Shown: positions 1 to 6,329 of the stretch, piece after piece | Numbering within the stretch: the stretch's first letter is position 1 | Layout of the letters: each line of letters begins with the position of its first letter | DNA from: Candidatus Parcubacteria bacterium | Lineage (GTDB): Bacteria > Patescibacteriota > Minisyncoccia > Phycocordibacterales > JAKFXT01 | DNA length: 35,831 nt | Direction: 5' to 3' | Assembly: GCA_021414235.1 (NCBI GenBank) | Contig: JAIOOV010000003.1 | Location: 103,560-139,390 of the forward strand | Notes under the pieces: model-generated | Told to the model about the DNA's origin: nothing | Database searches by the model: none | Seen by the model: the letters and a program-made list of their open reading frames with translations, nothing else | Translations under genes and position numbers: made by a program

Positions 1-431
1 ATCCCCGACTTCACGATGCAGTCCTTTTCCGGACTGAGGACCATCTCCGCCTCTAACTTGGTACGGCCATAAACAGAGCGCGCCTCTTCGTGGGCGGCCA
101 TAGAGGAGATGAAGATGAACTGCTTCACTCCGAGCTCCTCGCAGAGGCGACGTAGCGCATGGGTGCCGCCTACGTTGATGTGGCGCGCTCTGGAGAGCGA
201 GCGGGCACCATCCCAGGCAGCGTGAATGACCACGTCGGGAACTTCTTCAAACTGCCACTCTCCTGCCCTCTCCAGTTGGAAATTAGGTCGGGTCAGAGGG
301 AGAACCGCGTAACCACGCGCGAGAAGAGCTTCGGTAAGAGCGCGTCCGAGAAAGCCATTAGCGCCAGTGATGGCCACCGTCTTGGCACGGCCATGGCCGG
401 TGTGAGAAGCGGTGGGGTGGAGTGCCTCCAT
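1..431 (-). CDS. NAD-dependent epimerase/dehydratase (extended SDR), 3' end runs off the window
   Basis: Manual translation from ATG at 431: MEALHPTASHTGHGRAKTVAITGANGFLGRALT... has the Rossmann motif TGANGFLG, then DVVIHAA, INVGGT, FIFISSMA and catalytic YGRTK (YxxxK). Not in the ORF track. Confidence 0.9.
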   Translation of the reverse strand, partial: MEALHPTASHTGHGRAKTVAITGANGFLGRALTEALLARGYAVLPLTRPNFQLERAGEWQFEEVPDVVIHAAWDGARSLSRARHINVGGTHALRRLCEELGVKQFIFISSMAAHEEARSVYGRTKLEAEMVLSPEKDCIVKSG

Positions 432-596
432 GTATAGCAGGACGGGTGGAGGGGTGGGGACTTACGAGATTTCAGCGAGATAGGAATCTCGCTGGTAGGA
501 AAGAGAAGATCCTATAAAGCTTTGCGAGGTAAAAAAATCAGTTTTTACGTTCTTCTTCATCGTGCGCCAAAATGCTTTATAGACTAGACTAGCGCT

Positions 597-1514
597 ATGA
601 ACCAGGGGGATGTACTGGACAAGCACCTAATTGAAGGAAGTCTTGGTGGTGGGAGCTACGGTAAGGTTTATCGGGTTATACACCAGGATTCAGGTACGGC
701 CATGGCTCTTAAGGTTGCATCCTCAAAGGATCCGATGGACGCACTTCGTTTTCAAGGGGAAAACGAAATCATGCACAAGCTCAAGCCTCATCCTAAAGTA
801 GTACAGCCCTTTAGTAATGTTGTACAAGTTCCTCCAGACACTTTTTATTACACAATGGAACTTGTGGACACTAACCTGGCTGATTACATGAGTCTACAGG
901 GATATTTCTCACCTTCAGATTCATTTAAAATTTTTAAGGATATTTGTGAAGGTTTGGCACACGCACATCAAGCAAGTATCGCGCACCGAGATTTACATTA
1001 TGAAAATGTTCTTTTAAATATCGGTAGCGGGGTGTATGTAAAATTGACAGACTTTGGTAAGGCGAAGGATTTTGACCGCACCTGGGGTACAAACTCTTTG
1101 TCACCATGTTGGGGGTGGTTCGTCAGTCCTCCAGAAGTTTTTTTTAAAGTTTGGGATTCACCCTCGCTCCCAGAGTCTATTGCAGGAGACATGTATGCTC
1201 TTGGTATATTGCTTTTTTCACTTATTCAGGCCAAACCACTAGTTGAACTTGACACCTTAAGGCATCAAATAAAGGGTTTCCTTGGGTCCCATCCTTCACT
1301 TGATTATCTTGATATACAGGAAAAGAATAAATTGTACCGTGACTGGATTCATAGTCGATCTTTTAAAAGTAACACATTAAACGTTCGATTATCTGACACT
1401 AATGAGAACGCTAAAATTAACTCCATATTGGACCGCCTAACCCATATCGACCATTCAATTCGCTTTAAAAACATAGCTGAGTTACAGGAAGAACTAATAC
1501 TACTAGGACTATGA
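597..1514 (+). CDS. Hanks-type Ser/Thr protein kinase, kinase domain only
   Basis: Gly loop GGGSYGKVY, ALK lysine, HRDLHYEN catalytic loop, DFG, PPE (APE-like) and DMYALG. No transmembrane or sensor domain. AT-rich. Confidence 0.93.
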   Translation: MNQGDVLDKHLIEGSLGGGSYGKVYRVIHQDSGTAMALKVASSKDPMDALRFQGENEIMHKLKPHPKVVQPFSNVVQVPPDTFYYTMELVDTNLADYMSLQGYFSPSDSFKIFKDICEGLAHAHQASIAHRDLHYENVLLNIGSGVYVKLTDFGKAKDFDRTWGTNSLSPCWGWFVSPPEVFFKVWDSPSLPESIAGDMYALGILLFSLIQAKPLVELDTLRHQIKGFLGSHPSLDYLDIQEKNKLYRDWIHSRSFKSNTLNVRLSDTNENAKINSILDRLTHIDHSIRFKNIAELQEELILLGL

Positions 1515-3265
1515 TTTCTCCCACTTTAGAAAAAAAAGAATATTTTCAGACCATGCGTGACGAGACAAAGCCAAGAATGAGCTATTCAGATGCTCTTTTT
1601 GAGCTTCCCCCTATTCAAGGAGATACATTTAGGCAACAACTTGTGCGGGCTCAGTGGAATTATGTCAAAGCTCAACTAAAGAAGAATGAAAATCCAAGGA
1701 CCTTAGTCGAAACTGGAGACTTGTATCTATTGAAAAATAATTACAAAAACGCGATAGATTATTACCAAAGAAGTTTGGTACTGAATCCTGATTTCATACT
1801 GGCTTACGAAAAAATTATTCTTGCATACTCCTTACACCGCAAATATCATGAGACGATACCATATTTTAGCCGACTCCTAGAGTTAACAAACAACAGAGTA
1901 GATATCCTACGAAAATACGCTGCGCTGAGAGTTAACATATTTTTGACACAGAACGAAGGTAAAGACGACGCAATGAGAATTCTTGATGAAGCATTAAAAT
2001 TAATGCCCGAGGATGTAGAACTAATCAATACCTACGGTTTTATACTTCTTAATCATTTCCCAGAAAAACTTAGTGAAGCTAAAGACTATTTTAGTAAAGC
2101 TTTAAAAATTAATGGAGAATATATCCATTCATTAAATAATCTTGCTGTTTGTTATATTAAAGAGGGAAAATGGAAAGAAGCTGAAGAAATTCTTTCAAAA
2201 AGTATTGCCATTACTCCCCCGAATTATCCTCATACCCATCAAAACCTAGCTCTTTTGTTACTAATACAACAAAGATTTGAAGAAGCTTATTCCGTCCTTG
2301 AAAAAGCTGTTAAGAAAGGTGTCCCGATAGAAAATTCAGCCCACCATTTAATGGGGTGGATTTTGTTGGAAATGCGCGATCTGAAACGTGCGCTTGTGTG
2401 GTATGAAGAAAAGATAAAAAGTGAACCAGGGAACGAGTTGCTCTTAAATAATTTAGGCTTTTGTTATGGAGCATTTGGAGAAAAGGAAAAATCAGAAAAA
2501 TGCTTTAAACAAGCTGTTTCAATCTCTGAAGATAAGATCAGAAGAACTCGTCTCTTCGATATGCGCGCCCTTCGTGGTTATTATAATTTGGGTAGAGTAA
2601 GAGCTGCTGCGAGTGATTTCAAAGAGGTTGAGAGAATCTCAAATAGAATTTCCGAACTTAACCCGGGAGATGCTTTTTCTATTTATTTAGCAGGTGTATC
2701 AAAGGTCATTAATGAAGAATACGAAGAAGCTAAGAAATTTTTCTCTCGAACACTTGCATTAGACGAAACAATTTCAGATGTATATCCTGATTATGCCTTT
2801 ATCCATGAGTGCATCGATGGAAATGCGCAAGCGGCAGCTGATCTACTTGAAAAAGGTATTGCGTTAGGGTTCGATAAGATTCTTATTAATAACAATTTGG
2901 CTTTTGCATATATCCAATTAAACCAACTTGATAAAGCTGAGAGAATCTTGCGAAGGTACACAGAGCCTATTCCCGTCATCTTGGCTACCAGAGGATTGTT
3001 GGAAATGCGGAGAGGAAATCTTGAGGAAGCCGAAGCTCTTTACACAAAAGCCATATCTCTTTTTGAAGGTAAAAATAGAAAAATTTGCACACAAATACAT
3101 CTCTTAGAAAAAGCTCGCTATTTCTTAAAAAGAAATAGCGCCGGGAAGGCACAAAAACTACTCAGAGAAGCAAAGGATGTTATTACCTCTTACTTGACGC
3201 CCCAAATAGAACTCTTGGAGATAGAAGCTAACGAACAAGTAGCTAGCTCAAATAACCGTCATTAG
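1511..3265 (+). CDS. Tetratricopeptide-repeat protein
   Basis: Many TPR-like units (e.g. LNNLAVCYIKEGKWKEAEEILSKSIAITP, LNNLGFCYGAFGEKEKSEKCFKQA). ATGA overlap with the kinase stop. AT-rich. Confidence 0.9.
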   Translation: MISPTLEKKEYFQTMRDETKPRMSYSDALFELPPIQGDTFRQQLVRAQWNYVKAQLKKNENPRTLVETGDLYLLKNNYKNAIDYYQRSLVLNPDFILAYEKIILAYSLHRKYHETIPYFSRLLELTNNRVDILRKYAALRVNIFLTQNEGKDDAMRILDEALKLMPEDVELINTYGFILLNHFPEKLSEAKDYFSKALKINGEYIHSLNNLAVCYIKEGKWKEAEEILSKSIAITPPNYPHTHQNLALLLLIQQRFEEAYSVLEKAVKKGVPIENSAHHLMGWILLEMRDLKRALVWYEEKIKSEPGNELLLNNLGFCYGAFGEKEKSEKCFKQAVSISEDKIRRTRLFDMRALRGYYNLGRVRAAASDFKEVERISNRISELNPGDAFSIYLAGVSKVINEEYEEAKKFFSRTLALDETISDVYPDYAFIHECIDGNAQAAADLLEKGIALGFDKILINNNLAFAYIQLNQLDKAERILRRYTEPIPVILATRGLLEMRRGNLEEAEALYTKAISLFEGKNRKICTQIHLLEKARYFLKRNSAGKAQKLLREAKDVITSYLTPQIELLEIEANEQVASSNNRH

Positions 3266-3280
3266 TGTTAACAATAAACC

Positions 3281-3351
3281 TTACCCCACTGCGACGAGTT
3301 GGCCGTTGAGGACCCGGAGACGCTGGTGGAGATCACGATAACCTGACTATC
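3281..3351 (-). pseudogene. Decayed 3'-end remnant homologous to the gene at 5793-6329
   Basis: Reverse strand reads DSQVIV-ISTSVS, then after a frameshift LRVLNGQLVAVG*. The 5793-6329 product ends DGQVIV...SVGVSAYLKVVGGQLVAVE*. 8 of the last 12 residues are identical, with mostly third-position nucleotide changes. Confidence 0.7.
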
Positions 3352-3363
3352 TTACAATAACCT

Positions 3364-4497
3364 CTAGAGACCACCCTTTACTCGGTTGTGTGTTTTACAT
3401 AACATCTGACAATTTTTGGCGGTGGTTTTCCCTCCTTCGTGCCAAGGAGTAATGTGGTCAGCTTCCATTTCGGCAAATTCCCACTTCATTTTTTCACGCC
3501 TCTCCTTTTTGCAGAACGAGCATACACCGCCTTGGTGTTCGTATGCTTTCCTCTTCGTTTTGTCATCAAAATCACGCAAATTGAGGTATTTTTCCTCACG
3601 CGTAAGGATGTATGGATAAATTCCTCTCAGGCTCTGAACTTCGTCGTCATCAATCAGCTTCAAAGTCTCCTTTTCAATGTCCCTAGAGTCGTACCTGGCA
3701 TCCTTATATTTGTTGTACAAGAGCCCCCATTCTACCCCCTTCATATCTTTGCGATACGTCGTAAATGTCTTCTGCACCCAGTCAAATACTGCCTGCCAGT
3801 ATTGCCAGAGTTCTTGTGCGTTTGTATCGTCCTTGTGCTCGTTCATGTATTGCTCAATGTGATCGCTTGAAATCCATCTCAAGGCCGTTTCCAAAACCTC
3901 CTGTCGTATAGGTGAGCCACTTACTAATTTCTCTCGCCCATCTTGCACCGCGGGGGCACCCGTTTTACTAAACCATCGTTTCGCGTCGGTGAGCCACTTT
4001 CCTGTATGTTGGGCATTCAAAAGCTCTTGATCGGTCAAGGGCTTACCTGCAATATTGATCGTACGAAACCAGGCGAGTTTTTCACTTGGTGTCCCTTCGC
4101 ACACATACACCGAGAGTTCGTAGTTCAAAATCTCTTCCTGCTGATCTTTGGGTAAGCTTGTAAAAGCAAGCTCATGATCGTCGTCAAACTTAATGGGGAT
4201 GATTTTCGTCACGTATTGGCATATGGAAACAGTGCGCTGTTGCCCATCCATCAATTCGTAGTTACCATCTTCATCAACCGACCAATACATTGTGTTAAGC
4301 GGAAAACCTTGCCGCACGGTTTTAATGACCGCGTCGCGCTCCTTGTCGCCATAGATAAACTCGCGCTGAAACGCAGGACGAATGTTGAGCTTGCTTCCAT
4401 ACCCGACGACACCGTTCTCACCGTCGTCTTGGTAACCATCCACCAAATCGCGAATGGTTATTTTCGGCACATCTTTCCCGGAAAGTCTTATTTTCAT
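3364..4497 (-). CDS. DUF262 (GmrSD/ParB-like N-domain) plus C-terminal HNH endonuclease; putative restriction enzyme
   Basis: RPAFQREFIY, ELMDGQQRT and FRTINIAGKPLT match DUF262 motifs. CSFC...ADHITPWHEGGKTTAKNCQMLCKTHN matches HNH. Starts 1 nt after the methylase stop. Confidence 0.88.
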   Translation of the reverse strand: MKIRLSGKDVPKITIRDLVDGYQDDGENGVVGYGSKLNIRPAFQREFIYGDKERDAVIKTVRQGFPLNTMYWSVDEDGNYELMDGQQRTVSICQYVTKIIPIKFDDDHELAFTSLPKDQQEEILNYELSVYVCEGTPSEKLAWFRTINIAGKPLTDQELLNAQHTGKWLTDAKRWFSKTGAPAVQDGREKLVSGSPIRQEVLETALRWISSDHIEQYMNEHKDDTNAQELWQYWQAVFDWVQKTFTTYRKDMKGVEWGLLYNKYKDARYDSRDIEKETLKLIDDDEVQSLRGIYPYILTREEKYLNLRDFDDKTKRKAYEHQGGVCSFCKKERREKMKWEFAEMEADHITPWHEGGKTTAKNCQMLCKTHNRVKGGL

Positions 4498-4498
4498 A

Positions 4499-5668
4499 TT
4501 AGTTTTTTTGTCGAATGAACAGCCGCTGATAGGCAGATTGTATTACTCGACCATCCTTATTGATAAAATAGTTCTTCTTTCCGTCGTTGCCAAGTAAATT
4601 TGCATTTTCATTTGTTTTACCACCGGACGATCCAGTCCTCGTGCCATCCTGCCTCATTTCCCAGTAATCATCGTATTTCTTTGTGTCGGGAAGTTCATCA
4701 TGACAACCCCTTTGAGATGCGCCTAGTAGTTGAAACTGCTGAGGATTGTATTTATCCAGGAAAGTAATGGGCACGCCCATAGCACCGCCGTAGTCAGCTG
4801 GGATCTCCGCAACTTTGGCGACCTCAATGGCGTCGTAATTGTCATAGTGTGGATACTCTTCCGGCGTGTATTTTTTGTAGAGAGGAATATTTTGGTGGTG
4901 TTTCGCCACATCCATGTTTGTATACCAGCACGAGGTAGAAACACGCGCGATTTTTTTACCGCTTTTCTCGTCAATATGATGATACTGCGTGAAATAATTC
5001 GGAACTTCGAAAAACATGCCGACATTGAACTTAGTATAGCCGGTGCGGAATTTATTTTCTTTAATGAGTTTGAAAATTTCTTTGTAAGTAATAGCGTTCG
5101 TGTTGCCGATAATCAAAAACTTCTTGTCGTGTTCAACGAGCTGGGCAACGTACTCAATGAAGAGTGAGAACGGCGGGTTGGTAATAACGATATCTGCCTG
5201 CTTTAGGAGTTCACGGCACTCGGGTGAGCGGAAGTCTCCATCGCCCTGGAGCGGCCGCCATTCGTTTTTTTTGTTTTCTTTCAGCTTCTCGGCGATATCG
5301 CGCCGGTCAATTGCACCATCACCATTGAGATCCTCTACTTCGTTAATAAGAAAGGCGTTGGCGTTCACCTTTGGGCGGCCTTTTTTCGGCTCGAGGGTCT
5401 TGTCATCACCAAAGAGGCCGAGCTGGGTGTTAGCTATGGGCGAGGGCTTGTAGCTCGTAGCGATGAGTCGCTTGATGCCAAGTGCGTTGAAGTTTTCTGC
5501 GAAGAAGCGGAAGAAATTGCTTTCAAACGGATCGTCACAGTTGCAAAAAATGACTTTGCCTCTGAGCTGGTCGCGATAATGATTAAGCTCGTTAGCGATG
5601 TCGCTCATCTGGGTATAAAACTCATCGCTCTTTGCCTTTTTTGCTTTAGAAAGATTACTGTGTGCCAT
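4499..5668 (-). CDS. Adenine-specific DNA methyltransferase, EcoRI-methylase family
   Basis: N-terminal KAKKAKSDEFYT, CNCDDP, GDFRSPEC, motif IV TNPPFS and MGVPITFLDKYNP. Start moved from the track's 5728 to the ATG at 5668 (MAHSNL), where family similarity begins. Confidence 0.9.
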   Translation of the reverse strand: MAHSNLSKAKKAKSDEFYTQMSDIANELNHYRDQLRGKVIFCNCDDPFESNFFRFFAENFNALGIKRLIATSYKPSPIANTQLGLFGDDKTLEPKKGRPKVNANAFLINEVEDLNGDGAIDRRDIAEKLKENKKNEWRPLQGDGDFRSPECRELLKQADIVITNPPFSLFIEYVAQLVEHDKKFLIIGNTNAITYKEIFKLIKENKFRTGYTKFNVGMFFEVPNYFTQYHHIDEKSGKKIARVSTSCWYTNMDVAKHHQNIPLYKKYTPEEYPHYDNYDAIEVAKVAEIPADYGGAMGVPITFLDKYNPQQFQLLGASQRGCHDELPDTKKYDDYWEMRQDGTRTGSSGGKTNENANLLGNDGKKNYFINKDGRVIQSAYQRLFIRQKN

Positions 5669-5747
5669 GTTTTTTACATGATTCAAACTTGGAAACAGAG
5701 CGGGGCAGATTAGATGTAAACTTTGCAATCAGCTCAAAAGTACTCCC

Positions 5748-5792: not shown

Positions 5793-6329
5793 CTACTCCA
5801 CCGCCACAAGCTGACCACCTACTACCTTGAGATAAGCAGAAACACCAACGGAAGGCTGAGCAACCATAGGCTCGCCATCCTTTCGCACAGCGAAGTTCAC
5901 AATGACCTGGCCATCCCTGATCTCCGTCGTCTGCGGAGCAATGCGATCCCCTAGGAGGATAGTGTTGGTACCGAGGTAGCCCTTCTCGCTGCCGAGCGCT
6001 ACTGCGGCGAGATAGAAAGTGCCAGAGCCGCCCGCGTTCTGGGTCATAAGGAAGGCTACGTCTTCCTTACCATCCCCATTGAGGTCTCCTCTCGCCTCAT
6101 TCCCGAAATAGCGAGTAGTCACCGTAGCCGCCGTATCCGTATCTATCTTTATCTCCGAGAGTCCTCCTGTGAGTTTGACCTTCTCGCCAAAGATCTCGTA
6201 AGTGCCGTCACGGTAGTCTGCGGCATAGGCAGGTCCTGTGGTGGAGCCTGGAGCAGGCTCGTAGGTCAGATACACGACGCCGATAACAAACAAGAGAAGC
6301 GTTACAGAGAGGATGATCACTTTATTCAT
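5793..6329 (-). CDS. Exported or membrane-anchored hypothetical protein with a DxDxDG-like loop
   Basis: N-terminal hydrophobic helix, GDLNGDGKEDVA loop, beta-rich body ending LGDRIAPQ...GQLVAVE. Confidence 0.8.
   Translation of the reverse strand: MNKVIILSVTLLLFVIGVVYLTYEPAPGSTTGPAYAADYRDGTYEIFGEKVKLTGGLSEIKIDTDTAATVTTRYFGNEARGDLNGDGKEDVAFLMTQNAGGSGTFYLAAVALGSEKGYLGTNTILLGDRIAPQTTEIRDGQVIVNFAVRKDGEPMVAQPSVGVSAYLKVVGGQLVAVE

What the first reader, a model, noticed from the sequence alone, without database searches (positions are those of the whole stretch)
597..3265. AT-rich kinase plus all-TPR two-gene module beside a restriction system: candidate new defence system
Seen: a complete cytoplasmic Hanks kinase with no sensor or TM domain, translationally coupled (ATGA) to a 584-aa protein made almost entirely of TPRs. 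Both are much more AT-rich than the neighbouring host genes and point head-on at a methylase/nuclease pair. Known: defence genes cluster in islands; Ser/Thr kinases act in anti-phage systems (Stk2, PglW of type II BREX); TPRs often sense phage proteins. Inference: the TPR protein is a sensor or scaffold gating a toxic kinase (abortive-infection-like). I do not recognise this two-gene layout as a named system.
Basis: partly seen in the sequence, partly recalled or inferred. Interest (0 to 1): 0.65.

Follow-up and report, generated by a model that had tools for sequence, protein, structure and literature searches.

The report
Mobile kinase–TPR gene pair in CPR bacteria
A foreign, AT-rich pair of genes (a bare protein kinase plus an all-TPR partner) sits beside the only restriction system of an ultra-small CPR bacterium; it belongs to a rare cassette that travels on prophages and next to restriction systems, so it is a credible but untested anti-phage defence candidate, distantly related to the already listed candidate PDC-M71.

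Summary
A 305-aa Hanks-type kinase (597-1514) overlaps by ATGA a 584-aa all-TPR protein (1511-3265). Together they are the lowest-GC stretch of the 0.695-Mb genome (38% against 55%, z -6.3), 99 bp from the only DNA-methylase/restriction pair I could detect there.

The pair is a real, co-evolving cassette:
- The kinase lies upstream of the TPR gene in every locus where the upstream DNA is held.
- The two identity matrices correlate (r 0.80).
- All catalytic residues are invariant in 26 kinases.
- There are at least 65 TPR representatives at 50% clustering.

Distribution is sporadic and almost confined to CPR/Patescibacteria: all 6 named genome hits are CPR, and 0 of 400 other sampled phylum genomes carry it. 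Of 17 informative loci, 4 adjoin R-M systems (twice as a Mod-Res-kinase-TPR operon), 6 carry serine recombinases, terminases or other mobile-element genes, and 7 show nothing telling.

It is this genome's only Pkinase gene, and no PP2C phosphatase was found.

Both proteins consistently but weakly match PADLOC's untested kinase+TPR candidate PDC-M71, so the layout is not unnamed.

Verdict: a plausible mobile defence module with a TPR sensor and a kinase effector, a new CPR branch of a known candidate kind. Function is unproven.

The parts
3..431 (-). Host gene (NAD-dependent epimerase/dehydratase, 3' part lies outside the window); left boundary of the islet
   Evidence: Pfam Epimerase 6.7e-13. 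GC is 0.60 in window 1-500. The 10 kb upstream are host-like, 55-59% GC.
432..596 (+). Upstream non-coding region of the kinase gene, where GC drops from host level to islet level
   Evidence: Sequence read; composition. No promoter-like site above chance was found.
597..1514 (+). Stand-alone Hanks-type (ePK) protein kinase, 305 aa, predicted catalytically active
   Evidence: Pkinase 8.3e-35. K39, E55, H130-R131-D132, N137, D152-F153-G154, P179-E180, D198 and R289 are invariant in 26 family kinases. AF2 pLDDT 89; nearest folds are PknB and CaMKII; nearest solved sequences are StkP and Stk1.
1511..1514 (+). ATGA stop/start overlap (translational coupling)
   Evidence: The same ATGA junction occurs in 10 of 15 orthologous loci; the others have overlaps of 1-22 nt or gaps of at most 7 nt.
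1511..3265 (+). 584-aa all-TPR superhelical protein, the presumed sensor or regulatory partner
   Evidence: Many TPR Pfam hits, including TPR-S PF20308 (29.7 bits against a cut-off of 27.6). AF2 pLDDT 90.6, 30 helices. Nearest folds are the OGT TPR domain, BBS4, Ctr9 and TTC7. Discrete orthologue family: E <= 5e-67, then a cliff to 2.5e-19. PDC-M71B 9.2e-24.
3281..3351 (-). Host-GC remnant resembling the 3' end of the 5793-6329 gene; it separates the kinase-TPR insert from the R-M cassette
Evidence: The alignment shows ...NGQLVAVG* against ...GGQLVAVE*. The sequence is GC-rich, unlike both inserts.
3364..4497 (-). Restriction endonuclease candidate (DUF262/GmrSD_N + HNH)
   Evidence: Pfam GmrSD_N 8.3e-18 and HNH 1e-7; PADLOC REase_II 4.6e-121.
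4499..5728 (-). EcoRI-family N6-adenine DNA methyltransferase (the likely true start is the ATG at 5668)
   Evidence: Pfam EcoRI_methylase 6.8e-132; PADLOC MTase_II 1e-111. It is the only DNA methylase found in the genome with five Pfam families.
5793..6329 (-). Host gene (178 aa, conserved in 20 of 40 relatives); right boundary of the islet
   Evidence: GC returns to host level.

Best explanation
The two genes form a horizontally acquired, self-contained cassette of CPR/Patescibacteria mobile elements. It most likely acts as an anti-phage (or anti-mobile-element) module.

**Shown:**
- The cassette is foreign to this genome.
- The kinase and TPR genes are always together, translationally coupled and co-diverging.
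- The kinase keeps every residue needed for phosphotransfer.
- The TPR protein is a pure repeat solenoid with no enzymatic domain.
- The cassette recurs beside R-M systems and at cargo positions of prophage-like elements.

**Inferred:**
- The TPR solenoid binds the kinase in a stoichiometric complex and keeps it silent.
- Binding of a phage protein, or loss of a host protein, on the TPR surface releases or activates the kinase.
- The kinase then phosphorylates host and/or phage proteins and stops the infection, probably at the cost of the cell's growth. This resembles Stk2 in staphylococci.
- No PP2C phosphatase was found in the genome, so such phosphorylation may not be reversed.
For: - **Foreign origin:** the pair is the lowest-GC stretch of the genome. 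It is more AT-rich than its flanks in 15 of 15 loci.
- **Linkage:** the kinase is directly upstream of the TPR gene in every locus examined. The identity matrices correlate at r = 0.80, Mantel p about 2e-4.
- **Activity:** the catalytic residues are invariant in 26 kinases.
- **Distribution:** rare and patchy. There are 6 GTDB species hits, all CPR, and 0 of 400 other phylum genomes. Diversity is still high, with at least 65 representatives at 50% clustering.
- **Context:**
  - Type II R-M 99 bp away, the only R-M detected in this genome.
  - Type I R-M, C5 methylase, PemK and a serine recombinase in L003.
  - Type III Mod-Res directly upstream on the same strand in two lineages about 30% identical to each other, L006 and L039.
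  - Between a large serine recombinase and TerL/TerS in L004.
  - After serine recombinase, PrimPol and TerS in L014.
  - A serine recombinase in L017; PemK and NADAR in L013.
  - PLD, PIN and Replic_Relax in L011.
- **Not housekeeping signalling:** it is the only Pkinase gene in the genome, only 3 of 40 relatives have any, and no PP2C was found.
- **Relation to a defence candidate:** all 14 and 53 of 55 TPR members hit PDC-M71B, and all 9 kinases hit PDC-M71A. PDC-M71 was nominated because it is embedded in BREX, DISARM or type I R-M systems.
Against: - No experiment exists for this family or for PDC-M71, one of the 145 candidates the authors call untested.
- Seven of 17 loci show only housekeeping or unannotated neighbours.
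- No formal defence-enrichment score against a background was computed.
- The matches to PDC-M71 are weak and partial: best 3.4e-32, and about 130 of 515 profile positions for the window protein. The PDC-M71B model also rings in a Bacillus subtilis control.
- Kinase plus TPR is a common signalling architecture.
- The kinase-TPR complex was not modelled.
- Prophage location fits a phage-benefit function equally well.
Confidence: 0.45

Rival explanations
1. Phage or mobile-element cargo that serves the element rather than the cell. The kinase, targeted by its TPR partner, would rewire or disarm host proteins, as the phage T7 kinase does, or exclude competing elements for the prophage's own benefit.
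For: - The pair sits inside prophage-like elements next to terminase genes and large serine recombinases.
- PHROGs holds a phage serine-threonine kinase family that the kinase matches (phrog_2361, 5.3e-22).
- A 2026 paper reports that the T7 kinase broadly disarms bacterial defences (PMC13645617, listed; I read only its abstract).
Against: - No relative was found in IMG/VR viral contigs or in 50,697 phage records.
- Many loci, including the window, have no phage genes nearby.
- Integrase-proximal position is also the classic site of prophage-borne defence cargo.
- Superinfection exclusion would itself count as defence.
Confidence: 0.2
2. Accessory regulator of restriction-modification. The kinase-TPR pair would work together with an adjacent methylase/nuclease system, as the kinases PglW (BREX type 2) and Mad6 (MADS) accompany methyltransferases, by phosphorylating R-M components or sensing their inhibition.
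For: - Two lineages carry Mod-Res-kinase-TPR on one strand. All four proteins have diverged to a similar degree (Mod 37%, Res 33%, kinase 30%, TPR 29% identity).
- R-M genes are adjacent in 4 of 17 loci.
- The best PADLOC model for the kinase is mad6 (2.2e-35).
- PDC-M71 was found embedded in BREX, DISARM or type I R-M systems.
Against: - Most loci (13 of 17) have no R-M neighbour.
- The R-M types differ (I, II, III).
- In the window the two inserts differ in GC (38% against about 45%), are convergent, and are separated by a host-like remnant. That points to separate acquisitions.
- The mad6 match is kinase-domain-level only (NCBIfam 104.7 bits against a cut-off of 460).
Confidence: 0.12
3. 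Toxin-antitoxin-like addiction module. The kinase would be a growth-arresting toxin and the TPR protein its neutralising partner, stabilising the islet or prophage without any phage-sensing role.
For: - Two overlapping genes that are mobile, patchy and AT-rich.
- Neighbours include PemK toxins.
- HipA-type kinase toxins set a precedent, and a HipA-like two-gene defence system (DS-6) was validated (PMC13092281).
Against: - The gene order (putative toxin first) and the very large 584-aa partner are atypical for type II TA pairs.
- No DNA-binding domain for autoregulation is present.
- TA and abortive-infection roles are not mutually exclusive.
Confidence: 0.1
4. Ordinary cellular signalling. A Ser/Thr kinase with a TPR scaffold would regulate some host process, and its neighbourhood would be coincidental.
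For: - Fused kinase-TPR proteins are widespread in bacteria. Examples are P0074 and a Calothrix 'kinase containing TPR domain'.
- Seven of 17 loci lie among housekeeping genes.
Against: - It is the lowest-GC island of the genome.
- It is absent from 400 of 400 other sampled phylum genomes and from all 40 relatives at the kinase level.
- No PP2C phosphatase partner was found.
- It is repeatedly carried by recombinase- or terminase-bearing elements.
Confidence: 0.08

Closest known systems
PDC-M71 (PADLOC-DB v2 'phage defence candidate'; Payne et al. 2024 preprint, 10.1101/2024.01.29.577857)
   Same: It is a two-gene cassette whose A model is matched by all 9 kinases tested and whose B model (about 515 positions) by 14 of 14 and 53 of 55 TPR proteins. 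It was nominated because the cassette is embedded in BREX, DISARM or type I R-M systems. That parallels the R-M neighbours seen here. It is also untested.
   Different: The matches are weak and partial: window kinase 5e-13 over 134 of 352 positions, window TPR 9e-24 with a best stretch of 130 of 515. No member of the present family scores better than 3.4e-32, so true PDC-M71 proteins lie outside it. PDC-M71 was defined from 31 RefSeq instances, whereas this family is almost confined to CPR metagenome genomes. The TPR partner here is about 60-70 residues longer.
Stk2 of Staphylococcus epidermidis (Depardieu et al. 2016, cited)
   Same: Both are Hanks-type kinases acting, or proposed to act, as an anti-phage effector switched on by a phage protein, with broad phosphorylation and abortive infection as the mechanistic template. 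The kinase domains are homologous (PADLOC Stk2 1.2e-16).
   Different: Stk2 is a single, longer protein (model of 500 positions), and only its kinase core aligns (positions 131-274). It has no TPR partner. Here the sensor would be a separate protein.
PD-T4-6 (single-gene Ser/Thr kinase defence from the Vassallo et al. 2022 screen)
   Same: The kinase matches many PD-T4-6 models over most of the kinase domain (best 1.4e-29; all 9 family kinases hit). The PADLOC pipeline could therefore label this gene PD-T4-6.
   Different: PD-T4-6 is defined as a single gene. The match is generic Hanks-kinase similarity. The obligatory overlapping TPR partner and the family-specific catalytic loop HRDL[H/W/Y]xxN are not part of that definition.
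Kinases attached to methylation-based systems: PglW (BREX type 2 / Pgl) and Mad6 (MADS)
   Same: A Hanks kinase is encoded next to DNA methyltransferase-based defence. mad6 is the best-scoring PADLOC model (2.2e-35). Two lineages here have Mod-Res-kinase-TPR operons.
   Different: None of the other Pgl or MADS genes is present. The NCBIfam scores are far below the equivalog cut-offs (MAD6 104.7 against 460; PglW 33.2 against 990). PglW and Mad6 are much larger multidomain proteins.
Fused kinase-TPR signalling proteins such as Mycobacterium tuberculosis PknG (from my own knowledge)
   Same: A Hanks kinase is combined with a TPR module that mediates protein-protein contacts.
   Different: Here the two parts are separate proteins, mobile and AT-rich, and they occur in genomes that otherwise lack Ser/Thr signalling.

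Membership tests
Hanks-type (eukaryote-like) protein kinase superfamily | Pkinase domain above Pfam's gathering score, with the VAIK Lys, alpha-C Glu, HRD, catalytic Asn, DFG and APE-like motifs | tested here: met
   PF00069 scores 120.9 bits against a cut-off of 31.7. K39, E55, HRD130-132, N137, DFG152-154 and PE179-180 are invariant in 26 sequences. The fold matches PknB and CaMKII. One deviation: the catalytic-loop Lys of HRDLKxxN is His, Trp or Tyr in all 26.
TPR repeat proteins | Tandem 34-residue helix-turn-helix repeats forming a solenoid | tested here: met
   TPR_1 and TPR_2 at 7.6e-38 and 8.7e-39. The AF2 model has 30 helices at pLDDT 90.6. The nearest fold is the OGT TPR superhelix, TM 0.63.
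PDC-M71 (PADLOC candidate) | Adjacent, co-oriented genes matching the PDC-M71A and PDC-M71B models | tested here: inconclusive
   Both models are hit (A 5.1e-13; B 9.2e-24), and by all or nearly all family members. Coverage of the models is partial, generic kinase models score higher, and the B model also rings in B. subtilis. PADLOC itself, with its own thresholds, could not be run.
PDC-M71 (PADLOC candidate) | Embedding within or next to BREX, DISARM or type I R-M systems (the basis of its nomination) | tested here: inconclusive
   One locus lies beside a type I R-M (L003), two follow type III R-M, and the window lies beside a type II R-M. Most loci are not embedded.
PD-T4-6 | Single-gene Ser/Thr kinase sufficient for defence | tested here: not met
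   The kinase-domain match is good (1.4e-29). However, the gene is never alone: a TPR gene overlaps or abuts it in all loci. Sufficiency of the kinase alone cannot be tested here.
Stk2 | Full-length similarity to the Stk2 model, including the non-kinase parts | tested here: not met
   Only residues 15-167 align, to model positions 131-274 of 500.
BREX type 2 (PglW) / MADS (Mad6) | Kinase reaches the equivalog cut-off and the other system genes (PglX/Y/Z or mad1-8) are present | tested here: not met
   NCBIfam PglW scores 33.2 against 990 and MAD6 104.7 against 460. The neighbours are only a type II R-M pair and host genes.
Defence-island gene family (guilt by association, Doron et al. 2018 style) | A majority of family members lie near known defence genes, compared with a genomic background | tested here: inconclusive
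   Ten of 17 loci have an R-M, TA/NADAR/PLD/PIN or mobile-element neighbour, and 4 of 17 have R-M genes. No background rate was computed and the sample is small.

The most novel reading that the evidence does not exclude
The kinase-TPR pair is a phosphorylation switch functionally coupled to restriction-modification. In the conserved Mod-Res-kinase-TPR operons, the TPR protein would sense phage anti-restriction activity or phage proteins. The kinase would then either license the nuclease or kill the cell when restriction is being defeated. In the window the pair may do the same in trans with the neighbouring R-M. This would be a CPR-borne, minimal analogue of the kinase arm of BREX type 2 and MADS, and the first dedicated abortive-infection-type immunity described for Patescibacteria.
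Probability: 0.12. Interest if true: 0.75.

Novelty: new variant of a known kind. Interest (0 to 1): 0.5.

Why it matters
Little is known about the immunity of CPR/Patescibacteria. In this genome I found no DNA methylase other than the one beside the pair.

A conserved, mobile kinase-TPR cassette that travels with CPR prophages and R-M systems would be a concrete, clonable candidate for a CPR-specific defence. It would also give a minimal two-protein model for how a repeat-protein sensor can gate a eukaryote-like kinase in immunity.

It also supplies independent genomic support, from a different phylum, for the untested PADLOC candidate PDC-M71.

If the cassette instead serves the prophage, it would be a rare example of a temperate-phage kinase with a dedicated targeting subunit.

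Tried and rejected
- **Viral and plasmid collections.** IMG/VR contigs, 50,697 phage records and PLSDB plasmids gave no specific relative. The best plasmid hit was a generic 1,650-aa TPR protein of Neochlamydia with no kinase.
- **Empty site in relatives.** The 178-aa right-flank gene is found in 20 of 40 relatives, but local synteny is not conserved. Only one relative, G033, has both flanks within about 1 kb, and in another orientation. No clean pre-insertion site could be shown.
- **Attachment-site repeats.** No convincing direct or inverted repeats were found around the islet.
- **Promoter and terminator scan.** The counts were not above the shuffled expectation.
- **True PDC-M71 proteins inside the family.** None was found: the best PDC-M71B E-value among 55 representatives was 6e-24. 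I could not fetch genuine PDC-M71 sequences for a direct profile comparison.
- **Literature.** 'PDC-M71' occurs in one unrelated survey and in a supplement of the Payne preprint.
- **Ordinary housekeeping signalling.** Rejected as unlikely for the reasons given under that rival.
Full report
**1. The observation**

- The window holds two overlapping + strand ORFs: 597-1514 (305 aa) and 1511-3265 (584 aa), joined by ATGA.
- The first is a bare Hanks-type kinase domain. Pfam Pkinase covers residues 14-290 at E 8e-35.
- The second is TPR from about residue 39 to the end. It gives many TPR hits, including the 'TPR-S' sensor model just above its cut-off. The AF2 model has pLDDT 90.6 and 30 helices with no other domain.
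- GC falls to 34-42% across the pair against about 57% in the rest of the window.
- On the whole 694,997-bp assembly, the pair is the single lowest-GC 2.7-kb stretch: 38.3% against a mean of 55.1%, z = -6.3.
- Convergent to the pair, 99 bp away, lie a DUF262/GmrSD_N+HNH nuclease (PADLOC REase_II, 4.6e-121) and an EcoRI-family methylase (6.8e-132).

**2. The host**

- The genome is 0.695 Mb in five contigs and is rated complete.
- Earlier agents call it a CPR/Paceibacteria bacterium. The closest named relatives of the pair are also CPR.
- The kinase is the only Pkinase-domain gene in the genome. Only 3 of 40 relatives have any, and none of the 11 genomes of the same family does.
- No PP2C-type phosphatase is present.
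- The neighbouring methylase is the only DNA methylase found with five major Pfam families.
- The foreign pair therefore sits beside what appears to be the genome's only R-M locus.
- Between the two inserts lies a host-GC stretch (3281-3351). Its minus strand ends ...NGQLVAVG*, like the ...GGQLVAVE* end of the host gene at 5793-6329 (lead from note e1-5219296).
- Together with the different GC of the two inserts (about 38% and about 45%), this suggests two separate insertions at one hotspot rather than a single co-transferred block.

**3. The family**

- *TPR protein.* It has a discrete set of orthologues 554-590 aa long with E <= 5e-67. After them the scores drop to generic TPR proteins at 2.5e-19.
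- *Kinase.* A kinase profile finds 21 kinases of 223-320 aa (19 of them 295-320 aa; two are 223-aa fragments on contigs of about 1-2 kb) at E <= 3e-66, then a cliff to 4e-28.
- *Family size.* An exhaustive HMMER search of 1.84 billion cluster representatives lists at least 65 single-stretch relatives (about 60 of them 510-603 aa, five shorter fragments) among its best 150.
- *Linkage.* In every locus I could inspect, a kinase gene of about 295-325 aa lies immediately upstream of the TPR gene on the same strand.
  - The junction is ATGA in 10 of 15 loci.
  - The others overlap by 1-22 nt or have gaps of at most 7 nt.
- *Co-divergence.* Pairwise identities of the kinases (28-60%) and of their TPR partners (27-65%) correlate at r = 0.80, Mantel p about 2e-4. 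The two genes evolve as a unit.
- *Composition.* In all 15 loci the pair is more AT-rich than its flanks.

**4. The kinase is built to work**

- Across 26 non-identical family kinases, K39, E55, H130-R131-D132, N137, D152-F153-G154, P179-E180, D198 and R289 are invariant.
- The AF2 model (pLDDT 89) is a complete ePK fold including the GHI subdomain. It is closest to PknB and CaMKII.
- The closest solved sequences are the bacterial kinases StkP and Stk1.
- One family signature departs from the norm. The catalytic-loop Lys of HRDLKxxN is never present; the loop reads HRDL[H/W/Y]xxN (HRDF and HRDI in one sequence each; the next residue is Trp in 19 of 26).
  - From memory, the eukaryotic kinase haspin has the same HRDLHWGN loop. 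I did not test this.
- The TPR protein is a long superhelix most like the OGT TPR domain, BBS4, Ctr9 and TTC7. These are all protein-binding scaffolds.

**5. Distribution**

- A scan of one genome per species (185,579 species) found six orthologous loci, all in CPR lineages: Paceibacterota (two), Gracilibacteria, Nomurabacteria, Doudnabacteria and Saccharimonadia.
- One further MAG is labelled Omnitrophota.
- None of 400 other evenly sampled genomes of the phylum has the cassette.
- It is therefore rare, patchy and spread across deep CPR classes, which is the pattern of horizontal transfer.

**6. Neighbourhoods (17 informative loci)**

- *R-M genes adjoin the pair in four loci.*
  - The window: type II.
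  - L003: type I HsdRSM, plus a C5 methylase, PemK and a serine recombinase.
  - L006 and L039/L040: bona fide type III Mod and Res directly upstream on the same strand (MTase_III 4.5e-155 and 2.1e-133; REase_III 2.1e-83 and 1.4e-143).
  - These last two operons are old or repeated. Mod is 37%, Res 33%, kinase 30% and TPR 29% identical between them.
- *Mobile-element hallmarks occur in six loci.*
  - L003: a serine recombinase, listed above with its R-M genes.
  - L004/L005: the pair lies between a large serine recombinase and TerL (phrog_38, 4.5e-82), TerS and a ParB-methylase.
  - L014, a complete Nomurabacteria chromosome: serine recombinase, PrimPol, TerS, then the pair.
  - L017: a serine recombinase 1.2 kb downstream.
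  - L011: Replic_Relax, PIN and a PLD nuclease.
  - L015: a DnaG-type zinc ribbon and DUF5681.
- *Other conflict genes.* L013 has PemK and NADAR neighbours.
- *Nothing telling.* Seven loci show only housekeeping or unannotated neighbours.
- I computed no background rate, so the enrichment is suggestive rather than demonstrated.

**7. Comparison with known systems**

- *PDC-M71.* PADLOC-DB holds a two-gene candidate, PDC-M71.
  - Its A model is matched by all nine kinases tested (best 1.3e-19). Its B model is matched by 14 of 14 and 53 of 55 TPR proteins (best 3.4e-32).
  - Generic TPR models hit only a minority of the TPR proteins.
  - PDC-M71 is cassette CAS_00219, with 31 RefSeq instances. 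It is one of 145 untested candidates nominated because they are embedded in BREX, DISARM or type I R-M systems (Payne et al. 2024 preprint).
  - The matches are partial, and no member of the present family scores strongly. The family is therefore a sister branch rather than PDC-M71 itself. The B model also rings in a B. subtilis control.
- *Other kinase models.* At kinase-domain level the protein also matches mad6 (2.2e-35), many PD-T4-6 models (best 1.4e-29), MkoA and Stk2.
  - NCBIfam equivalog cut-offs for MAD6 and PglW are missed by far.
  - The partner genes of those systems are absent.
- *Literature.* The literature searches found no validated two-gene kinase+TPR defence system.

**8. 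Interpretation**

- *Best-supported reading (about 0.45).* This is a mobile defence-type module.
  - The TPR solenoid is the sensing and regulating partner of an active kinase.
  - On infection the kinase phosphorylates host or phage proteins, by analogy with Stk2.
  - The linkage, foreign origin, predicted activity and contexts are shown. Complex formation, the trigger, the targets and the outcome are inferred.
- *Rivals.*
  - Cargo that serves the prophage, through host take-over or anti-defence (0.2).
  - An accessory switch of R-M systems (0.12).
  - A toxin-antitoxin-like addiction pair (0.1).
  - Ordinary signalling (0.08). This last fits the distribution, the composition and the lack of any other Ser/Thr signalling genes poorly.

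**9. Verdict**

- The layout is not unnamed. It is a new, CPR-centred variant of an already listed but untested candidate kind.
- Interest is moderate. It is a clean, clonable candidate for immunity in a poorly understood phylum, with an intriguing recurrent link to type III R-M, but there is no functional evidence.

**10. Limits**

Noticed in passing
L006:1744-8734 and L039:546-7650: A four-gene, same-strand arrangement of type III Mod, Res, kinase and TPR occurs in two lineages. All four proteins are only 29-37% identical between the two loci. L039 adds a 55-aa zf-HC2 gene before the kinase and a PLD-like gene downstream.
   Followed up: partly
window 3281-3351 (- strand): A GC-rich stretch between the TPR and nuclease stop codons ends in NGQLVAVG*. 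This resembles the C-terminus (GGQLVAVE*) of the host gene at 5793-6329. It looks like a decayed duplicate of that gene's 3' end bracketing the R-M cassette.
   Followed up: partly
window 984-1007 (kinase residues 130-137) and all family kinases: The catalytic loop reads HRDL[H/W/Y]xxN in all 26 family kinases (HRDF and HRDI once each; the next residue is Trp in 19 of 26), never with the usual Lys of Ser/Thr kinases. From memory this loop is shared with eukaryotic haspin; I did not test that.
   Followed up: partly
window 1511-1624 (TPR residues 1-38): The non-helical N-terminal tail begins with a motif conserved in the closer orthologues (MISPT-x-[ED]KKEY..QT.R). Residues 11-20 have pLDDT 83 although they are not helical. 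It could be a docking or pseudo-substrate peptide.
   Followed up: no
L004:4531-12260 (and the near-identical L005): A prophage-like element has the order large serine recombinase, kinase-TPR, TerL, TerS, ParB-N6/N4 methylase. The pair occupies the integrase-proximal cargo position.
   Followed up: partly
own genome G000:C4:410448-410966 (outside the window): A 172-aa ORF of 31% GC carries an R-x4-H (HEPN-like) motif and a sub-threshold DUF4145 hit. It lies two genes from a LexA-like repressor gene and is another single-gene foreign islet.
   Followed up: partly
own genome G000:C4:187457-189253 and G000:C5:36764-38092 (outside the window): These are two further low-GC (39-40%) single-gene islets. 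One encodes a 598-aa protein with no Pfam match; the other a 442-aa Cys-rich, EGF/TIL-like secreted protein.
   Followed up: partly
L013:1165-3821: In the Gracilibacteria locus I read the pair with genetic code 25 (TGA = Gly). Under that code both frames are open and the two ORFs overlap by 22 nt. I did not check whether in-frame TGA codons are actually present.
   Followed up: no
PADLOC model PDLC04781 (PDC-M71B): The model also gives a match at E <= 1e-5 in the Bacillus subtilis control genome, so it has some generic TPR pick-up. Weak hits to it should be read with care.
   Followed up: no
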